A DNA stretch of 57,867 nt from an uncultured Thermoplasmata archaeon (GCA_964394465.1 CAYMXS010000004.1:16905-74771), one strand, 5' to 3'; shown: positions 21,557 to 28,098, counted from the stretch's first letter. Notes: generated by a model from the letters alone, not told the origin. Made by a program: numbers and translations.

Positions 21557-22303
21557 ATGAACGAAGTTAAGATCGATACCGACCTTTTTATAAGCGCGAA
21601 TCTGTGTGCCTGGCATAGTGGAAGGCAGGCCGTTTTACTCTCGGACCTACATCTGGGATACGAAGCTAGTCTAGAAGACGAAGGCTTTTCCTTCCCCGTG
21701 ATCCAAAAAGAAGAGATACTGGATAGATTATCCACCATGAAAAGAAGGTATGATCCTGAAGCGTTCATCGTTCTTGGAGATTTTAAACACGAGTTCGGGA
21801 GGAGCGATAAGAAGGAGTTCAAAGAAGTCCTAGATGTGATGGACTACATCCTGGAGGACTCAGAACTCATAATAGTGAGGGGGAACCACGATAATTATCT
21901 CAGAAACCTGACCGAGATGAAGAACGTCGTGCTCTATGAAGAGGATCTTCACATGGACTCTCTGCTTCTAGCCCACGGCCACGAACGTTTGAAAGAAAGA
22001 GGCGATTCCTTGAGTATAATAGGTCATGAACACCCCGCGATCCAGACGACCGGAGAACTGGGCGACAGGATGAAGTTGAAGTGCTTTCTATACCATCCCA
22101 AAGAGAAGATACTCGTCCTGCCGGCCCTATCACCCATGGCCGAAGGAAGAGATGTGATCAAGCCAGAGGGCTTCTTCTCCGAGGCTTTAAGGCCCTTTGA
22201 AAGGGTAAAGGATGAATTCCAAGTCTACGCTATAACGGACCAGGGCTTGATGGATTTTCAGACCATCGGTGCCATTAGAGAGGCCTCCTTAAAAGATAGA
22301 TAG
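21557..22303 (+). CDS. Metallophosphoesterase (SbcD/Mre11-related calcineurin-like family)
   Basis: SDLHLG, LGDFKH, RGNHD, HGH, GHEHP. Confidence 0.88.
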   Translation: MNEVKIDTDLFISANLCAWHSGRQAVLLSDLHLGYEASLEDEGFSFPVIQKEEILDRLSTMKRRYDPEAFIVLGDFKHEFGRSDKKEFKEVLDVMDYILEDSELIIVRGNHDNYLRNLTEMKNVVLYEEDLHMDSLLLAHGHERLKERGDSLSIIGHEHPAIQTTGELGDRMKLKCFLYHPKEKILVLPALSPMAEGRDVIKPEGFFSEALRPFERVKDEFQVYAITDQGLMDFQTIGAIREASLKDR

Positions 22304-22344
22304 ATCACGGGGGAAGATTTAAATACTCAATCATAGCTTTTCGC

Positions 22345-22542
22345 CTTGAAACAGTTGAAAATATCGATAGAGAGGAATAGATAATTATTTACGCGTTCCT
22401 CAATTGATTCATCCCTCAATTACCCTTCACTACCTTCAAACTATCATCAAAGGACGGTATAAGGTATAGTGTATGGTACTTTGTGTATTTCAGGTGATGG
22501 GGTGTAGATATTTTCAGCTGTTTTACATACATCAAGAGGTGG
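22345..22542 (+). ncRNA. Putative structured 5' leader RNA of dnaG (multi-stem junction)
   Basis: 17-bp stem 22349-22365/22507-22523 with one U-G; hairpin 22372-22377/22396-22401; stem 22410-22418/22495-22504; stem 22421-22436/22461-22478; upstream TTTAAATA box around 22318-22325. Confidence 0.6.
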
Positions 22543-22548
22543 TCATAT

Positions 22549-23802
22549 ATGGATATTGATCCAAGTACAACTAAATACGTAATCAAAACAAGACTGGAAG
22601 CTAACGGCGTTGTAGAGAAACCAGACGTAGTCGGTGCTATATTCGGACAGACAGAAGGACTTCTAGGTGACGAGTTGGACCTCCGTAATCTCCAAAAGAG
22701 TGGAAGGATGGGCAGGATAGAAGTGGACGTCCATTCTTCCAAGGGGACTTCAAAAGGTACGATAACCATCCCTTCAAGTCTCGACCTGGTGGAGACATCG
22801 ATCATAGCGGCGGCCCTGGAAACCATAGACAGAGTCGGACCCTGTAAAGCCGACATATCGATAGAGGAGATAGAGGACGTCAGAGAATCCAAGAGAGCGA
22901 AGATAGTAGAGAGGGCTAAACAGTTGCTTTCACAGACATTGGAGAAGAGCAAGGTCCCTACAGGGAACATAACCGAATCAGTTAGACAGGAAGTCCAGAT
23001 GGAGGAGATCAGCAGGTACGGTGACGATAAATCTCCTGCCGGTCCTAACATAAAGGATTCCGACGCTATAATAATCGTCGAAGGTAGGTCCGATGTTCTC
23101 AACCTTTTAAGGTACGGTATCAAGAACGCTATCGCAGTTGAAGGCACAGACATACCAGACCCCATCAAGCAGCTCTCATCCGAGAGGGTCACTACGGCCT
23201 TCGTCGACGGGGACAGAGGCGGCTCTTTGATACTGAAGGAACTGCTGGAGACGGCGGAAGTGGACTACGTGGCCAGAGCACCGGACAACAGCGAGGTCGA
23301 AGAACTGACCCAAAAACAGATCATGAAGGCTTTACGAAGTAAGATACCGGTGGACCAGTACATAGAGATGTACGATCTAGATGTGGAAAGAAAGACTACA
23401 CAGGACAGGGGATACCAAGAGAAGGATAGTTCCGAGCCCGACGTAGCTAAGGCCGATTCCTCGGATACCGATTCTAGTTCTGACTCCGAAAGCGAAGAGC
23501 AGGACCAATACGCTCGGTACAAAGACGTGATAAAGGAGATCAGGAACGACAAGATAGCCAGGCTGTTCAACGGGGACGGCAAACTCATCAAGGAAGTCAA
23601 AACCAGAGAACTAGCTGACACGCTGTTGGACACGGACACGGAGATAAACGACGTGATCTTCAACGGTATAATAACCCAAAGACTGGTGGACATAGCAGCC
23701 GATGAAGGGATCAAACGGTTGATGGGCAGGAAGGTTGGCAACATACCTAAGAGACCGACGTCAGTGGAACTGCTTCCATGGAAAAAGATCATGAACAATT
23801 AA
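22549..23802 (+). CDS. dnaG: Archaeal DnaG (TOPRIM; primase-like exosome-associated protein)
   Basis: GVVEKPDVVGAIFGQTEGLLG, IIVEGRSDVLNLL, FVDGDRGG, GIITQRLVD. Confidence 0.96.
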   Translation: MDIDPSTTKYVIKTRLEANGVVEKPDVVGAIFGQTEGLLGDELDLRNLQKSGRMGRIEVDVHSSKGTSKGTITIPSSLDLVETSIIAAALETIDRVGPCKADISIEEIEDVRESKRAKIVERAKQLLSQTLEKSKVPTGNITESVRQEVQMEEISRYGDDKSPAGPNIKDSDAIIIVEGRSDVLNLLRYGIKNAIAVEGTDIPDPIKQLSSERVTTAFVDGDRGGSLILKELLETAEVDYVARAPDNSEVEELTQKQIMKALRSKIPVDQYIEMYDLDVERKTTQDRGYQEKDSSEPDVAKADSSDTDSSSDSESEEQDQYARYKDVIKEIRNDKIARLFNGDGKLIKEVKTRELADTLLDTDTEINDVIFNGIITQRLVDIAADEGIKRLMGRKVGNIPKRPTSVELLPWKKIMNN

Positions 23803-23806
23803 AACC

Positions 23807-23841
23807 CTTTATTTTCTTTTTCTTGATTTTACGTTCTTTTT
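23807..23841 (+). terminator. Oligo-T terminator
   Basis: T tracts after the dnaG stop. Confidence 0.55.
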
Positions 23842-23939
23842 ACGTTCTATGTCCCTGTTTTCAGATGCGATAAAGAGCTGTCTCCAACTTCTTACCAGAA
23901 TTTTTTTATATATAGACCCTTGCTCCATGTTAGATAACC

Positions 23940-26558
23940 ATGAAATACGTCTATTCGTTCGAAGAAGGGAGCGCCGATATGAAGGATCAACTCGGCGGTA
24001 AAGGGTCGAATCTGGCAGAGATGACTACGATAGGATTGAACGTTCCTCCGGGTTATACCGTAACCACGGAAGCGTGCTTGGATTATCTTGACAAGGGAAG
24101 ACTGAGTGAAGAGATAAAGGAACAGATGAAGGAGTACATGAATAAGTTGGAGGAAAAGATGGGTCAGGAGTTCGGCGACCCCGACAATCCTCTGCTCGTT
24201 TCAGTAAGGTCCGGGGCCGCGGTTTCCATGCCCGGCATGATGGATACCATCCTCAATCTGGGGCTGAACGAAGAGACCGTAGAGGGTCTTGTAAAGAAGA
24301 CCGACGAGAGGTTCGCCTACGACAGCTATAGAAGATTCGTCAACATGTTCGGTGAAGTCGTGAGGGGCATACCCCATAGAGAGTTTGAAGACATCATGGA
24401 CAAGGTCAAAGACAAGCGGGGTGCGGATCAGGATGTGGACCTCGATGCAGAAGGGATGAAGGAAGTGACCAGAAGATACAAGGAGTTGGTGGGAGACATA
24501 CCTGACGATCCCTGGGAACAGCTGAAAGAGGCGACGAAAGCGGTCTTCGGTTCCTGGGACAACGAAAGAGCCATACGGTATAGGAACCTGAACGATCTTC
24601 CCCACGATATGGGGACCGCGGTCAACGTACAGACCATGGTCTATGGTAACACGGGAGAGAACTCCGGCAGCGGTGTGGCCTTTACAAGAGACCCGTCCAC
24701 GGGAGAGAACAAGATATATGGAGAGTTCCTACAGAATGCGCAGGGCGAAGACGTCGTTGCTGGTATCAGAACGCCCTTAGACATCTCCGACCTGAAGGAT
24801 ATGTGGCCCGAGATATATGAAGAGTTAGAAGAGGTGTGCCACACCCTGGAAGAGGAGTACAAGGACATGCAGGACCTGGAGTTCACCGTAGAGGACAAGG
24901 AACTTTACATACTGCAGACAAGGACGGGAAAGAGGACCCCTAATGCGGCAGTGAAGATAGCCCACGACATGCACGAAGAGGGTATTATCAGCAAGAAAGT
25001 AGCGTTGTTGAGAGTCGAAGGTGAACAGATAGAGAAGATACTGCACAAGAGGATCGATCCCGACGCAGAGCTGGATAAACTCACCCAGGGGCTCAACGCC
25101 TCTCCAGGAGCAGCGTCAGGCAAAGTCGTGTTCGATACGGACGAGGCGGAGAAAAGAGGAAACGAAGGTGAGAACATCATCCTTGTCAGGCCGGAGACCA
25201 CGCCTGAGGACATCCACGGTCTGGCGGCCGCCCAAGGTGTGTTGACCAGCAGAGGCGGGATGACAAGTCATGCGGCGGTCGTTGCTAGAGGAATGGGTGA
25301 GCCATGTGTTGCGGGAGCGGAAGAGATAGATATAGACCTTGAAGGAGAAACGTTCAAGGTCAAAGGTAAAACGATAAAGAAGGACGATATAATAACGATA
25401 GACGGCACGACTGGAGACGTGATCGTCGGTGAAGCTCCTCTGATAGAGCCCGAGTTCACTGAAGAGTTCGAGAAACTGCTCGGATGGGCCGACAACATCA
25501 GAAAGATGGGCGTCTGGACAAACGCGGATACACCAGAAGACGCGCAGAAAGCCCTGGACTTCGGGGCGGAAGGTATAGGCCTCTGCAGGACTGAGCACAT
25601 GTTCTTCGAGCCCGGAAGATTAGAAGTCGTACACGAGATGATCATCGCAGAGGACGAGGAGCAGAGGAAAGAGGCCCTCGATGAACTCTTACCGATGCAG
25701 AAGAAGGACTTCAAAGAGCTCTTCGAAGTCATGGACGGCCTCACTTTGACTATACGCCTGCTCGATCCTCCACTACATGAATTCGCTCCGACGGACAGGG
25801 AATCTCAAGAGGAACTGGCTGAAAAGTTGGACGTGGATGTCGAAACCATCCAGAATAGAGTGGCCCGCCTGGACGAGGCGAACCCCATGCTCGGACATAG
25901 AGGATGCAGGCTGGGGATAACCTATCCAGATATATACAAGATGCAGGTACAGGCTATACTAGAAGCCGCCGCCGAAGTCAAAGAAGAGGGCACGGAAGTA
26001 GAACCTCACATAATGGTACCTCTGGTCGGCAACGTGAAGGAACTGGAGAACGTCAAAGAGAATATCGTAGAACCGGTCGTAGAGGACGTCTTCGATGAAT
26101 ATGGTGAAATGGACTATCAAGTGGGAACCATGATAGAGATACCCAGAGCGGCGCTCACCGCGGACGAGATAGCGGAGGAAGCGGAGTTCTTCTCCTTCGG
26201 TACAAATGACTTAACGCAGATGGGATTCGGATTCAGTAGAGACGACGTAGGTACCTTCGTCCCCAACTACTTGGATGAAGGTATAATGGACGACGATCCG
26301 TTCCAGGTGTTAGACCAAGAAGGCATAGGAGAACTGGTCAAGATGGGAACCGAGAGAGGCAGAGAAACCCAGGAAGATCTTTCAGTAGGGATCTGCGGAG
26401 AGCACGGCGGAGAGCCAAAATCAGTAAAATTCTGCTACCGCTCCGGTCTAGACTACGTCAGCTGCTCGCCTTACAGAGTTCCAGTAGCCAGGATAGCCGC
26501 AGCAAAGGTGGTCATAGAGGACGAGATGGAAGTCGACGAAGGAGTAGAAGGGTACTGA
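23940..26558 (+). CDS. ppdK: Pyruvate, phosphate dikinase
   Basis: LGGKG, PLLVSVRSGA, GGMTSHAAVVARG (phospho-His), GLCRTEHM, GICGEHGG. Confidence 0.97.
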   Translation: MKYVYSFEEGSADMKDQLGGKGSNLAEMTTIGLNVPPGYTVTTEACLDYLDKGRLSEEIKEQMKEYMNKLEEKMGQEFGDPDNPLLVSVRSGAAVSMPGMMDTILNLGLNEETVEGLVKKTDERFAYDSYRRFVNMFGEVVRGIPHREFEDIMDKVKDKRGADQDVDLDAEGMKEVTRRYKELVGDIPDDPWEQLKEATKAVFGSWDNERAIRYRNLNDLPHDMGTAVNVQTMVYGNTGENSGSGVAFTRDPSTGENKIYGEFLQNAQGEDVVAGIRTPLDISDLKDMWPEIYEELEEVCHTLEEEYKDMQDLEFTVEDKELYILQTRTGKRTPNAAVKIAHDMHEEGIISKKVALLRVEGEQIEKILHKRIDPDAELDKLTQGLNASPGAASGKVVFDTDEAEKRGNEGENIILVRPETTPEDIHGLAAAQGVLTSRGGMTSHAAVVARGMGEPCVAGAEEIDIDLEGETFKVKGKTIKKDDIITIDGTTGDVIVGEAPLIEPEFTEEFEKLLGWADNIRKMGVWTNADTPEDAQKALDFGAEGIGLCRTEHMFFEPGRLEVVHEMIIAEDEEQRKEALDELLPMQKKDFKELFEVMDGLTLTIRLLDPPLHEFAPTDRESQEELAEKLDVDVETIQNRVARLDEANPMLGHRGCRLGITYPDIYKMQVQAILEAAAEVKEEGTEVEPHIMVPLVGNVKELENVKENIVEPVVEDVFDEYGEMDYQVGTMIEIPRAALTADEIAEEAEFFSFGTNDLTQMGFGFSRDDVGTFVPNYLDEGIMDDDPFQVLDQEGIGELVKMGTERGRETQEDLSVGICGEHGGEPKSVKFCYRSGLDYVSCSPYRVPVARIAAAKVVIEDEMEVDEGVEGY

Positions 26559-27023: not shown

Positions 27024-28098
27024 CCTTTTCCTCGGTCATGAACCTGTTTTCTATCTCGTCGGCTATCTCATCTACTCCGTGCACTAAGGCGTCCTGGGCC
27101 GGTACATTGTATCTCTTTTCGTACATCTCCTTCCACTCGTCCGGGTCTATGCCACCCTCGTGGTTTATTCCTATGGCTATGACCGAATCCGGATAGAAGA
27201 ACTCTATGGTTTTTTTCTCTTCTTCAAGGTCTGGTGGGGGAAAATCCGGAAGACCGTCCTTTTCCTTTCTACCCGGCGCGTGGATAAGTACGACACCGTG
27301 AGGATGGACGCCCTTCATCAGAGCTAGAGGATTACCTCCCTGAGGATGTGCTATACATGCTTGACCTTCTATTATTATCACGTCGTGATCGTTCTCTGAC
27401 GCCTCTAAAACAACTCGTTCGGCCTCTCCGCTGAGAAAGTCTCCTCTTATTCCATCTAGTGGAAAACCGTATTTGGCTCCCTGCATCATGCCCGTCTGGC
27501 CCGTGGCTACGAAAGCCGGGTTATAGCCCCTTCTGGTGAACTCTTTATATATCTCTATACAGAAAGTCCTTTTTCCTATAGCGCAGTCCGTACCGGAAAC
27601 GAGGATCCTAGGCGGCTTATCCATATCTCTCAGTTCTCCAGTGAAGAACTGGGGGTTCTCCAGTTCTTTTCTTACGTCCCAGATGTCAACGCCATGCTTC
27701 TCCGCCTTCTTTTTGAATTCCTCTTCCTCTGATATATGGTCGTGGCACCCGTGGACTACGTCCATGCCGTTCTCAATGGCTCTTAGAAAAACTTCTTTCT
27801 GGTCGTAGGGGAAACCGCCTCCATCTCTAGCTATGCCGTTGATGAAGGCCTCCGGTTTGACCTCTAAACGTCCCAAGGCTTCCTCCAGACCATCGAATAT
27901 CGGGATATCTTTTTCGACGTCTTGAAGGACCTCCTTAACGGAGTCTTCCTCCCTTGTGCTGTCTATAACTCCGACTATCTCGTACTTCTCGGAGAACCTT
28001 ACAAGGCCATTGGCCGTTTTCCCGTCTATCTTTCCGAACTCTCCTTCCGCATATATCAAAGCGGGTATCTTTTCCTCTATATCAAACATCTTCAACAC
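27016..28098 (-). CDS. DUF1611 family P-loop protein (DgcN-like)
   Basis: GKTANGLVRFS, GTDCAIGKRT, FVATGQTGMMQG, IIIEGQ. Confidence 0.85.
   Translation of the reverse strand: MLKMFDIEEKIPALIYAEGEFGKIDGKTANGLVRFSEKYEIVGVIDSTREEDSVKEVLQDVEKDIPIFDGLEEALGRLEVKPEAFINGIARDGGGFPYDQKEVFLRAIENGMDVVHGCHDHISEEEEFKKKAEKHGVDIWDVRKELENPQFFTGELRDMDKPPRILVSGTDCAIGKRTFCIEIYKEFTRRGYNPAFVATGQTGMMQGAKYGFPLDGIRGDFLSGEAERVVLEASENDHDVIIIEGQACIAHPQGGNPLALMKGVHPHGVVLIHAPGRKEKDGLPDFPPPDLEEEKKTIEFFYPDSVIAIGINHEGGIDPDEWKEMYEKRYNVPAQDALVHGVDEIADEIENRFMTEEKDD

What the first reader, a model, noticed from the sequence alone, without database searches (positions are those of the whole stretch)
22318..22548. Highly structured ~200-nt RNA in the dnaG 5' leader
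Seen: AAACAGUUGAAAAUAUC (22349-22365) pairs with GAUAUUUUCAGCUGUUU (22507-22523), the only deviation being a U-G wobble valid on the + strand. This stem encloses hairpin GAGGAA/UUCCUC and a long arm (CAUCCCUCA with UGA-U-GGGGUG, then UACC/GGUA, CAC/GUG, UACCUU/AAGGUA), giving a three-way junction. CUUGA (22345) can also pair with UCAAG (22532) right at the SD GAGGUGG. A TATA-like box lies just upstream. Known: archaeal DnaG is an RNA-binding exosome subunit. Inference: an undescribed cis-regulatory RNA (autoregulation, processing signal or riboswitch-like element) or a co-transcribed ncRNA.
Basis: partly seen in the sequence, partly recalled or inferred. Interest (0 to 1): 0.75.

Follow-up and report, generated by a model that had tools for sequence, protein, structure and literature searches.

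The report
Conserved folded leader of archaeal dnaG
The roughly 200-base stretch in front of the dnaG gene of this salt-lake archaeon is a real folded RNA leader, kept with compensating mutations in all sampled relatives, that matches no catalogued RNA family and probably controls how much DnaG is made.

Summary
The 17-nt inverted repeat is there and extends to 19 bp (22347-22365 with 22507-22525). The enclosed 179 nt fold far better than shuffles (z -4.36, 0 of 200), on the + strand only.

It is single-copy in its genome, so it is not a MITE, and it has no Rfam match. The organism is a Thermoplasmata MAG from hypersaline settings.

All 34 distinct dnaG upstream regions of the family share one layout:
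- a TATA box;
- 20-31 nt further on, a 5' arm reading GAAAWCAGUUG;
- a variable interior of 100-320 nt;
- a 3' arm reading CARCUGUUUUC;
- 19-41 nt further on, SD and AUG.

The closing helix covaries: 13 of 20 pairs change on both sides, and 0 of 500 shuffles reach the score. Its mismatches are G-U rather than A-C (39 versus 4), which points to + strand RNA. The U4 run is invariant.

Similar GAAAA/UUUUC clamps occur in part of the phylum. Interiors are enriched in single-stranded AUCAC.

No conserved uORF, SD-sequestering pairing or riboswitch-like core was found.

Best reading: a cis-acting dnaG leader that hides the mRNA 5' end and a U-tract. The mechanism is inferred and no transcript data exist. 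The scan noted dnaG leaders before, in DPANN and Asgard genomes.

The parts
22318..22325 (+). TATA box TTTAAATA, the promoter of the leader and dnaG transcript
   Evidence: Sequence. A box matching TTTWWATA at 7 of 8 positions or better lies 20-31 nt (mode 22) before the 5' arm in 33 of 34 family leaders.
22348..22348 (+). Predicted transcription start (G), 22 nt after the TATA box. Inferred, not mapped.
   Evidence: Spacing rule recalled from archaeal promoters. Constant TATA-to-arm gap.
22347..22365 (+). P1 5' arm (UGAAACAGUUGAAAAUAUC), at the very 5' end of the predicted transcript
   Evidence: Covariation.
22372..22401 (+). P2 hairpin (GAGGAAU ... GUUCCUC)
   Evidence: MFE and centroid structures. 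A 5' hairpin at this place is predicted in 6 of the 8 relative groups (A, C, D, F, G, H), and its sequence varies.
22410..22445 (+). C/A-rich strand (CAUCCCUCA, ACCCUUCAC, UACCUUCA). Own counterpart of the C-rich strand and AUCAC motifs of relatives.
22422..22503 (+). Long interrupted arm (P3 and extensions), closed by ACCCU/GGGGU in the MFE
   Evidence: G-strand/C-strand pairing in subgroups.
22494..22505 (+). G-rich strand GGUGAUGGGGUG, next to the 3' arm
22507..22525 (+). P1 3' arm (GAUAUUUUCAGCUGUUUUA), including the invariant U4 run at 22521-22524
   Evidence: (invariant columns).
22526..22548 (+). A-rich spacer with Shine-Dalgarno GAGGUGG (22536-22542)
   Evidence: The 3' arm ends 19-41 nt before the AUG in 33 of the 34 family leaders as computed. 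For the 34th (L029), whose 5' arm misplaced, it ends 23 nt before the AUG. The SD is largely unpaired in the centroid.
22549..23802 (+). dnaG (archaeal DnaG primase / exosome-associated protein), 417 aa
   Evidence: NCBIfam NF003108, 521 bits against a cut-off of 300.

Best explanation
This is the structured 5' leader of the dnaG mRNA.

Anatomy (shown or directly predicted). A TATA box at 22318-22325 should start transcription at about G22348. The first 18-19 nt of the transcript pair with 22507-22525. This closes a domain of about 180 nt holding a hairpin, a small hairpin and a long arm. The domain ends 23 nt before the AUG, leaving an A-rich, mostly open ribosome-binding stretch.

What relatives keep. 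The closing helix, its position at the transcript's 5' end, an invariant U4(-5) run in its 3' strand, and single-stranded AUCAC-type motifs inside. The rest of the interior drifts.

Mechanism (inferred). The helix acts as a clamp that decides the fate of the message. It hides the 5' end from 5'-end-dependent decay. It also keeps the U-tract paired with the 5' GAAAA. A U-tract is the kind of signal that the archaeal termination and cleavage factor aCPSF1/FttA binds. The exposed CA-rich segments give endonucleases an entry point. If so, the amount of full-length, translatable dnaG mRNA would follow the state of the RNA-decay and termination machinery that DnaG belongs to. This resembles the leaders of E. 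coli pnp and rne.

Odds. About 0.8 that this is a functional cis-acting leader. About 0.4 for this particular clamp, decay and termination mechanism.
For: Real structure:
- z -4.36 for 22347-22525, with 0 of 200 shuffles as good.
- z -3.20 for the transcript from 22348, in which the helix starts at nt 1.

Tied to dnaG, not to the neighbour:
- The same TATA, arm, interior, arm, SD layout occurs in 34 of 34 distinct family leaders with enough upstream sequence. One further locus (L051) is cut by its contig end, and L029's 5' arm was set by hand.
- The upstream phosphoesterase gene is present in only 12 of 29 relatives' loci.

Covariation of the helix on A2:
- 84.7% of 634 cells are paired.
- 13 of 20 pairs change on both sides (74 cells).
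- The score is 0.323 against 0.181 in shuffles, and 0 of 500 shuffles reach it.
- Slid registers reach at most 53.6% paired.

Strand and molecule: in the 14 core pairs there are 401 Watson-Crick cells, 39 G-U, 4 A-C and 29 other.

The U4 run is invariant in 34 of 34. Its 5' partners vary: G-U in 8, 1, 3 and 5 sequences at the four positions, and at the fourth position 15 sequences do not pair.

Promoter: a TATA box in 33 of 34, 20-31 nt before the arm.

Model R1 was built from 15 compact leaders. It finds 14 of 19 held-out family leaders, the window's own at 20.5 bits, and 3 leaders from outside the family.

Wider reach: a T4+ run 8-60 nt before the start is present in 11 of 14 class loci and 16 of 28 phylum loci. 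Its upstream partner pairs better than shuffles (z below -2) in 4 and 9 of them.

Interior motifs:
- TCAC occurs 57 times against GTGA 19 times, with unpaired probability 0.59 against 0.46 for the interior overall.
- TCAC[GA]NTCA occurs in 6 of 35, 6 of 14, 5 of 28 and 2 of 5 upstream regions, against 0.3 or fewer expected in each set.

Context:
- The genome encodes aCPSF1 (932 bits) and RNase PH exosome genes.
- aCPSF1 binds U4 tracts through its KH domains (PMC8716108, abstract).
- It cuts single-stranded CA (PMC3553952, passages).
- Neighbouring promoters give short leaders, so 200 nt is exceptional here.
Against: - No transcript data. The start, the read-through and any processing are all inferred, and no RNA run was listed.
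- The leader has a single U4 run. dnaG's own terminator has four U4-5 runs, so any termination here would be weak.
- The U-run could be conserved for another reason, such as a protein site.
- The window's own leader lacks a clean AUCACGNUCA motif (one search lists none inside it). Twelve of 28 phylum loci have no U-tract near the start.
- The inner C-strand/G-strand helix is significant in only 7 of 34 leaders, mean z -0.56.
- The relatives are not independent, so shuffle-based counts overstate.
- The role of 5'-end-dependent decay in this lineage was not established. The bacterial RNase J model was not met.
Confidence: 0.4

Rival explanations
1. Translational operator. A protein binds the leader and blocks or admits the ribosome at the nearby SD, as ribosomal-protein and RNase leaders do. 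The protein could be DnaG itself, which binds A-rich RNA, or another RNA-binding protein such as a KH-domain factor. The binding site could be the helix with its conserved CAGUUG/CAACUG core, the AUCAC motifs, or the A-rich spacer.
For: - The helix keeps sequence as well as pairing: A11-U447 is invariant and G12-C446 holds in 33 of 34.
- AUCAC motifs are strand-specific and mostly unpaired, and they recur across classes.
- The helix ends 19-41 nt from the AUG.
- DnaG's preference for A-rich RNA is stated in the abstract of PMC7667871 (listing).
Against: No binding data. The motif number and position vary, and the window's own leader has only degenerate copies. I know of no protein that recognises this helix.
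Confidence: 0.25
2. A separate stable small RNA, or an attenuation product. Transcription often stops at the U-run. The released RNA of about 180 nt has paired 5' and 3' ends and a job of its own, and dnaG is made only by read-through.
For: - It has its own TATA box, and the terminal helix ends exactly in an invariant U4(-5)C.
- A helix followed by U's looks like a terminator.
- Paired ends are typical of stable RNAs (recalled).
- There is no room for a second promoter in the 19-41 nt before the AUG, so read-through must occur anyway.
Against: - The element is always directly in front of dnaG.
- It is single-copy.
- The interior evolves fast, unlike most trans-acting structured RNAs.
- There is only one U4 run, against four in a real terminator nearby.
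Confidence: 0.15
3. Riboswitch or other ligand sensor.
For: A long, multi-branched leader placed near an SD.
Against: No conserved core. The interior ranges from about 100 to 320 nt and cannot be aligned, and RNAalifold keeps only the closing helix. No Rfam match. No alternative pairing with the SD: mean z +0.24, 0 of 34 below -1.64.
Confidence: 0.04
4. Leader-peptide or uORF control, as an earlier scan note proposed for DPANN dnaG leaders.
For: The window's leader has a 20-codon AUG frame (22497-22559) that runs through the 3' arm into the dnaG start.
Against: No AUG-started uORF is conserved in place or in peptide. Four of 34 leaders have no AUG at all (only AUG starts were scanned).
Confidence: 0.03
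5. A DNA-level feature: a MITE or other mobile repeat, or a pair of inverted protein-binding sites.
For: Terminal inverted repeats of 17-19 nt.
Against: A single copy in the 2.5-Mb genome. The place is the same in front of dnaG across 10 genera. G-U outnumbers A-C 39 to 4 among non-Watson-Crick cells, which a DNA palindrome would not show.
Confidence: 0.02

Closest known systems
E. coli pnp (PNPase) leader and rne 5' UTR (Rfam RF00040). These are autoregulatory leaders of RNA-decay enzymes. The mechanisms are recalled, not read here.
   Same: A long structured 5' leader in front of a gene of the RNA-degradation machinery. A helix involving the 5' end of the message governs stability.
   Different: No sequence or structure homology: no Rfam hit even at E up to 10. 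The domain of life and the enzymes differ. Here the helix is long-range, joining the 5' end to a site next to the RBS, rather than a local hairpin. Feedback is not shown.
5'-terminal stabilising stem-loops of bacterial mRNAs, such as the ompA 5' UTR (recalled)
   Same: Base-pairing that starts at or within a few nt of the transcript's first base.
   Different: Those are small local hairpins. This one encloses 140-320 nt and carries an invariant U-run.
Archaeal U-tract terminators read by aCPSF1/FttA (PMC8716108, abstract and outline)
   Same: A U4-5 run, here preceded by a helix strand. The genome has aCPSF1.
   Different: A single U4 run inside a leader, paired with GAAAA. Terminators carry several runs, as after dnaG itself. 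Termination here is not shown.
dnaG leaders noted earlier by this scan in DPANN and Asgard genomes (e1-5167635, e1-5607775, e1-5537848). These are unchecked AI notes.
   Same: A long folded, unannotated leader directly upstream of archaeal dnaG. The DPANN note also describes a long closing helix with compensating changes.
   Different: - Model R1 does not match the 6 DPANN or other-phylum loci held here (L064-L069).
- Only 1 of the 5 of them examined has a T4+ run near the start, and none shows a GAAAA-type partner (L064 was left out).
- No conserved uORF here.
- The sizes differ from the Asgard cases (455-770 nt per the notes).

Membership tests
Any Rfam 15 family (including RF00040 rne 5' UTR, riboswitches, archaeal sRNAs) | Score at or above the family's gathering threshold | tested here: not met
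   0 matches in the whole window at gathering. At E up to 10 there are only two minus-strand snoRNA-type hits far below threshold: 20.1 bits against 38, and 16.4 against 70.
MITE / mobile inverted-repeat element | Several dispersed copies in the genome | tested here: not met
   Only the self match (E 1.7e-117). The next best has E 0.5 over 26 nt. The genome is 94% complete.
MITE / mobile inverted-repeat element | Variable insertion sites among relatives | tested here: not met
   Always between a TATA box and the dnaG SD, in 34 of 34 family leaders.
Structured cis-acting mRNA leader | Lies between the gene's promoter and its start codon, on the gene's strand | tested here: met
   TATA box 22 nt before the helix and SD/AUG 23 nt after it. 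G-U asymmetry favours the + strand. The transcription start is predicted only.
Structured cis-acting mRNA leader | Structure conserved with compensatory changes in orthologous leaders | tested here: met
   13 of 20 helix pairs change on both sides, and 0 of 500 shuffles reach the score. RNAalifold finds the same helix on its own.
Structured cis-acting mRNA leader | Effect on expression of the downstream gene | not testable with these tools
   No RNA run was listed. This needs reporters or transcript mapping.
Riboswitch | Conserved ligand-binding core plus an expression platform with alternative pairing | tested here: not met
   The interior is not conserved. No excess SD complementarity.
Transcription attenuator / terminator | Helix followed by a U-run upstream of the coding region | tested here: met
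   The 3' arm ends in an invariant UUUU(C/A). There is only one U4 run, against four in dnaG's own terminator.
Transcription attenuator / terminator | Mutually exclusive antiterminator structure, or 3' ends at the U-run | not tested
   No alternative fold was searched systematically, and there are no 3' end data.
Leader-peptide (uORF) control | Conserved short ORF in the leader | tested here: not met
   no shared AUG-started frame or peptide, and 4 of 34 leaders have no AUG.
Box C/D or H/ACA guide RNA | C/D boxes with a K-turn, or a hairpin-pocket-ACA architecture of about 60-75 nt per hairpin | tested here: inconclusive
   Only sub-threshold C/D hits, and on the opposite strand. The size and the branched fold do not fit H/ACA (judged by eye). 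No dedicated guide-RNA search was run.
dnaG leaders of DPANN / Asgard archaea (earlier scan notes) | Homology detectable by a sequence and structure model | tested here: not met
   R1 gives no match at E up to 1 in L064-L069. No Asgard loci were held. The model covers only the closing helix and is weak.

The most novel reading that the evidence does not exclude
Archaeal dnaG genes in several phyla carry lineage-specific versions of one regulatory device, a leader that senses RNA-decay and termination capacity.

In Thermoplasmatota it would work as follows. The mRNA's first bases (GAAAA) clamp onto an invariant U-tract just before the ribosome site. This hides the 5' end from exonucleases and hides the U-tract from aCPSF1/FttA. 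Exposed AUCAC/CA motifs invite cleavage. The supply of DnaG, the exosome's RNA-binding cap and a primase, would thus be set by feedback from the decay and termination machinery.

The same AUCACGAU-plus-C-rich module in small transcription units elsewhere in the genome, including upstream of the exosome operon, would belong to the same circuit.
Probability: 0.15. Interest if true: 0.85.

Novelty: new variant of a known kind. Interest (0 to 1): 0.62.

Why it matters
Very few cis-regulatory mRNA leaders are known in archaea, and how archaea set the level of their RNA-degradation machinery is open. This is a covariation-supported leader family that:
- is not in Rfam;
- was not found in the literature I could search;
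- sits in front of a universal archaeal gene, dnaG;
- is kept across a family and, in recognisable form, across part of a phylum.

Earlier scan notes for DPANN and Asgard suggest that long structured leaders are a general trait of archaeal dnaG. The design is unusual: a long-range helix joins the transcript's first nucleotides to an invariant U-tract next to the ribosome site. That gives clear tests with compensatory helix mutants, U-tract mutants, and aCPSF1 or exosome depletion.

Tried and rejected
- Rfam, whole window at gathering and the locus at E up to 10: nothing usable.
- RNA evidence: no RNA holder listed for window 22000-23200.
- MAFFT Q-INS-i is not installed.
- Plain MAFFT alignments misplace the interior, and once the 5' arm, so RNAalifold on A3 gave 0 pairs. 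I relied on end-anchored columns of A2 and on the compact-leader alignment A4.
The smaller R1 was built instead.
- R1 finds nothing in the own genome at E up to 10, not even the window's own leader, so it is too weak for a genome-wide regulon search. In one search it missed 5 of 19 held-out family leaders (L009-L012, L014) and gave two antisense hits.
- A naive genome-wide search for GAAA...UUUC helices gave 98, then 166, mostly chance hits inside genes. It is uninformative. Its first version timed out.
- SD sequestration by the interior: rejected. SD pairing with the stretch before the helix: rejected.
- Conserved uORF: rejected.
- A universal inner C-strand/G-strand helix holds in subgroups only.
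- Literature: three searches and passages of three papers gave nothing on an archaeal dnaG leader. Subscription journals and supplements were not searched.
- The control genomes of the genome search gave no loci, so model archaea with mapped transcription starts could not be inspected.

Full report
**What is at the locus.** dnaG runs from 22549 to 23802 on the + strand (417 aa). It scores 521 bits against NCBIfam NF003108, archaeal DnaG, where the cut-off is 300. The gene upstream (21557-22303, +) is an SbcD-related phosphoesterase (TIGR00024). The 245-nt gap between them is AT-rich, 36% G+C against about 50% in the flanks. Record titles of close DnaG relatives name Thermoplasmata / Thermoplasmatota MAGs from soda-lake and salt-lake samples, among them Candidatus Saliniplasma.

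**Check of the observation.**
- The inverted repeat 22349-22365 / 22507-22523 is real: 17 nt with one mismatch. The mismatch is a U-G wobble on the + strand.
- Two more pairs extend it to 19 bp, 22347-22365 with 22507-22525.
- The arm sequence occurs nowhere else in the window with up to 3 mismatches.
- The + strand folds to -58.3 kcal/mol, z -2.98. The - strand gives only z -1.47.
- The element alone, 22347-22525, gives -52.6 kcal/mol, z -4.36, with 0 of 200 shuffles as stable.
- The predicted fold has the closing helix P1, the GAGGAA/UUCCUC hairpin, a small extra hairpin and a long interrupted arm.

**Not a repeat, not a known RNA.** The element is single-copy in its 2.5-Mb, 94%-complete genome. 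Rfam 15 gives nothing at gathering thresholds in the whole window. At E up to 10 there are only two far sub-threshold snoRNA-type hits, on the opposite strand.

**Conservation in the family.**
- DnaG was found in 39 of 41 related genomes, counting the window's own, and in 22 of 24 other genomes of the family.
- A further 32 loci came from named records.
- After removing duplicates, 35 distinct family upstream regions remained. One (L051) is cut by its contig end.
- The other 34 all show the same layout. L029's 5' arm was set by hand.
- The layout is: a TATA box; 20-31 nt later (mode 22) a 5' arm of consensus GAAAWCAGUUGR; a variable interior, so that the whole element spans 138-353 nt; a 3' arm YCARCUGUUUUC; then 19-41 nt of A-rich spacer, an SD (AGGUGNU) and the AUG.
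- The TATA box matches TTTWWATA at 7 of 8 positions or better in 33 of 34.
- The upstream phosphoesterase gene accompanies dnaG in only 12 of 29 relatives' loci. The element therefore travels with dnaG, not with its neighbour.

**Covariation.** On the 34-sequence alignment A2, I scored the 20 pairs of P1.
- 84.7% of 634 cells form standard pairs.
- 13 pairs show changes on both sides, in 74 cells. Examples are C-G to U-A or A-U at the CAG/CUG core, and G-C to A-U at three inner positions.
- The covariation score is 0.323 against 0.181 for shuffles, and 0 of 500 shuffles reach it.
- Sliding the 3' partners by 1-3 columns drops pairing to 29-54%.
- RNAalifold, run blind on the 15 compact leaders (A4), predicts exactly this helix and nothing else.
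- Among the 14 core pairs there are 401 Watson-Crick cells, 39 G-U, 4 A-C and 29 other. This asymmetry is expected for an RNA read from the + strand. It is not expected for a DNA palindrome or a minus-strand RNA.
- The sequences are related, so the shuffle counts overstate independence. The slide control and the G-U asymmetry do not depend on independence.

**Sequence constraints beyond pairing.** The four U's of the 3' arm are invariant in 34 of 34. Their 5' partners vary: A to G in 8, 1, 3 and 5 sequences, and at the fourth position 15 sequences do not pair. The U-run is thus conserved for its own sake. A11-U447 is invariant and G12-C446 holds in 33 of 34.

**The interior.**
- It cannot be aligned across the family.
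- Within subgroups, RNAalifold predicts a 5' hairpin and a helix between a C-rich strand (CAUCCCUCA-like) and a G-rich strand next to the 3' arm. As a family-wide feature this is weak: mean z -0.56, with 7 of 34 below -1.64. The window's own leader belongs to the subgroup that has it.
- A strand-specific motif is enriched. ATCAC occurs in 23 of 34 interiors against 5.2 expected, and TCAC in 30 of 34 against 12.9.
- TCAC occurs 57 times against 19 for its complement. It lies mostly in the second and third fifths of the interior and is more often unpaired than the interior overall (0.59 against 0.46).
- A longer form, TCAC[GA]NTCA, occurs in 6 of 35 family, 6 of 14 class, 5 of 28 phylum and 2 of 5 other-phylum dnaG upstream regions. 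At most 0.3 is expected in each set.
- The window's own leader has only degenerate versions, CCCUUCACUACCUUCA at about 22423-22438.

**Reach beyond the family.**
- R1, built from the 15 compact leaders with P1 as its only structure, recovers 14 of 19 held-out family leaders. The window's own scores 20.5 bits (E 0.11 in 224 kb).
- R1 also recovers 3 of 49 other sources, all from the phylum. It misses L009-L012 and L014.
- DnaG was found in 120 of 121 genomes sampled across the phylum.
- A T4+ run 8-60 nt before the start is present in 11 of 14 loci from other families of the class, 16 of 28 from other classes, and 1 of 5 from other phyla.
- Its upstream partner pairs better than shuffles (z below -2) in 4, 9 and 0 of them. 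One clade keeps UGAAAAAUAGCAC / GUGCUAUUUUUC almost unchanged.
- The clamp type is therefore widespread in Thermoplasmatota but not universal. Twelve of 28 phylum loci lack the U-run.

**Hypotheses tested and dropped.**
- SD masking by the interior: mean z +0.24, 0 of 34 below -1.64.
That stretch lies between the TATA box and the predicted start.
- Leader peptide: no AUG-started frame is shared, and 4 of 34 leaders have no AUG.
- Riboswitch: no conserved core.
- MITE or DNA palindrome: see above.
- With a start at G22348, the helix begins at nucleotide 1 and the SD is open in the centroid structure.

**Mechanism (inferred).** The helix always begins within a few nucleotides of the predicted start and ends next to the ribosome site. 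The U-run is the most conserved element. Taken together, these suggest a clamp that controls what happens to the message.

Two published properties of aCPSF1/FttA fit the parts. Its KH domains bind terminator U4 tracts (PMC8716108, abstract). Its nuclease prefers single-stranded CA (PMC3553952, abstract and passages). The genome encodes aCPSF1 (932 bits) and the exosome genes.

I therefore favour a leader that shields the 5' end, masks a weak termination or cleavage signal, and offers CA-rich entry sites. This would couple dnaG output to RNA-decay capacity, in the manner of the E. coli pnp and rne leaders (recalled).

Several points weigh against this. The leader has only one U4 run, while dnaG's own terminator has four U4-5 runs. 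There are no transcript data. No protein has been shown to bind. A protein-bound translational operator and a separately terminated small RNA remain serious rivals.

**Literature.** Searches for dnaG with leader, UTR, archaea and structure terms found no description of an archaeal dnaG leader. The passages checked in three papers were irrelevant. This covers open-access full text only.

**Earlier scan notes.** They report long folded dnaG leaders in DPANN (a closing helix with a uORF) and in two Asgard groups. These are unchecked notes. Here the uORF idea fails, and R1 does not match the DPANN loci in hand. The recurrence of long leaders before dnaG is still worth a joint analysis.

**Seen in passing.** The exosome superoperon (psmA, a 211-aa gene, an rrp4-like gene, two RNase PH genes) lies on contig C29. 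Upstream of psmA sits a strongly conserved non-coding unit with its own TATA box, reading ...AUCACGAUAAUCACCCUCCCUCCCUUUUU....
- The 12-mer ACCCTCCCTCCC is present in 22 of 30 family psmA loci, on psmA's strand in the 10 loci where I compared it. The window's genome has a variant.
- It has no Rfam match.
- Look-alike units occur at two other places in the genome.
- It shares the AUCACG-plus-C-rich signature with dnaG leaders of relatives. Whether that reflects a common factor is unknown.

Noticed in passing
Own genome contig C29, about 27560-27680 on the - strand (locus L107/L108). Relatives' loci L109-L137.: A conserved non-coding unit upstream of psmA, the first gene of the exosome superoperon.
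- Layout: own TATA box, then ...AUCACGAUAAUCACCCUCCCUCCCUUUUU, often a hairpin and a second UCACGAUAACCUCCCCCCUUCCC copy, then a separate proximal psmA promoter.
- ACCCTCCCTCCC occurs in 22 of 30 family loci. The own genome has the variant AUCACGAUAACCUCCCACCCCUCCCC.
- No Rfam match.
- It looks like a C-rich, anti-Shine-Dalgarno-like small RNA gene.
   Followed up: partly
Own genome C14:35334 (+) and C10:24375 (-): Two further AUCACGAUAA + C-rich + U-run units in the same genome. The C14 copy has its own TATA box and lies before a gene whose first residues look like glutamine-amidotransferase PurQ (named by eye, not scanned). The C10 copy has no obvious downstream ORF. Together with the psmA copy they suggest a small family of C-rich sRNAs.
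   Followed up: partly
Own genome C2:43813-44200: A perfect or near-perfect 13-nt inverted repeat, GAAGAAAACTGTC ... GACAGTTTCCTTC, 374 nt apart. It turned up in the naive helix search. Context not examined.
   Followed up: no
window 23803-23850: dnaG is followed by four U4-5 runs within about 45 nt (TTTATTTTCTTTTTCTTGATTTTACGTTCTTTTT). This is a typical multi-U-tract archaeal terminator. The next gene, at 23940, has a TATA box about 35 nt before its ATG, which gives a short leader.
   Followed up: no
Loci L066-L069 (DPANN and unclassified archaea): dnaG upstream regions of Aenigmatarchaeota show a closing helix of about 20 bp ending just before the SD. A Pacearchaeota locus and an unclassified one carry AUUCACG(C/U)UCAUUUU in what looks like a hairpin loop. 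All read by eye.
   Followed up: no
window 22416-23192, - strand: A 258-codon ORF antisense to the leader and the start of dnaG. It is most likely a shadow frame of dnaG and was not examined further.
   Followed up: no
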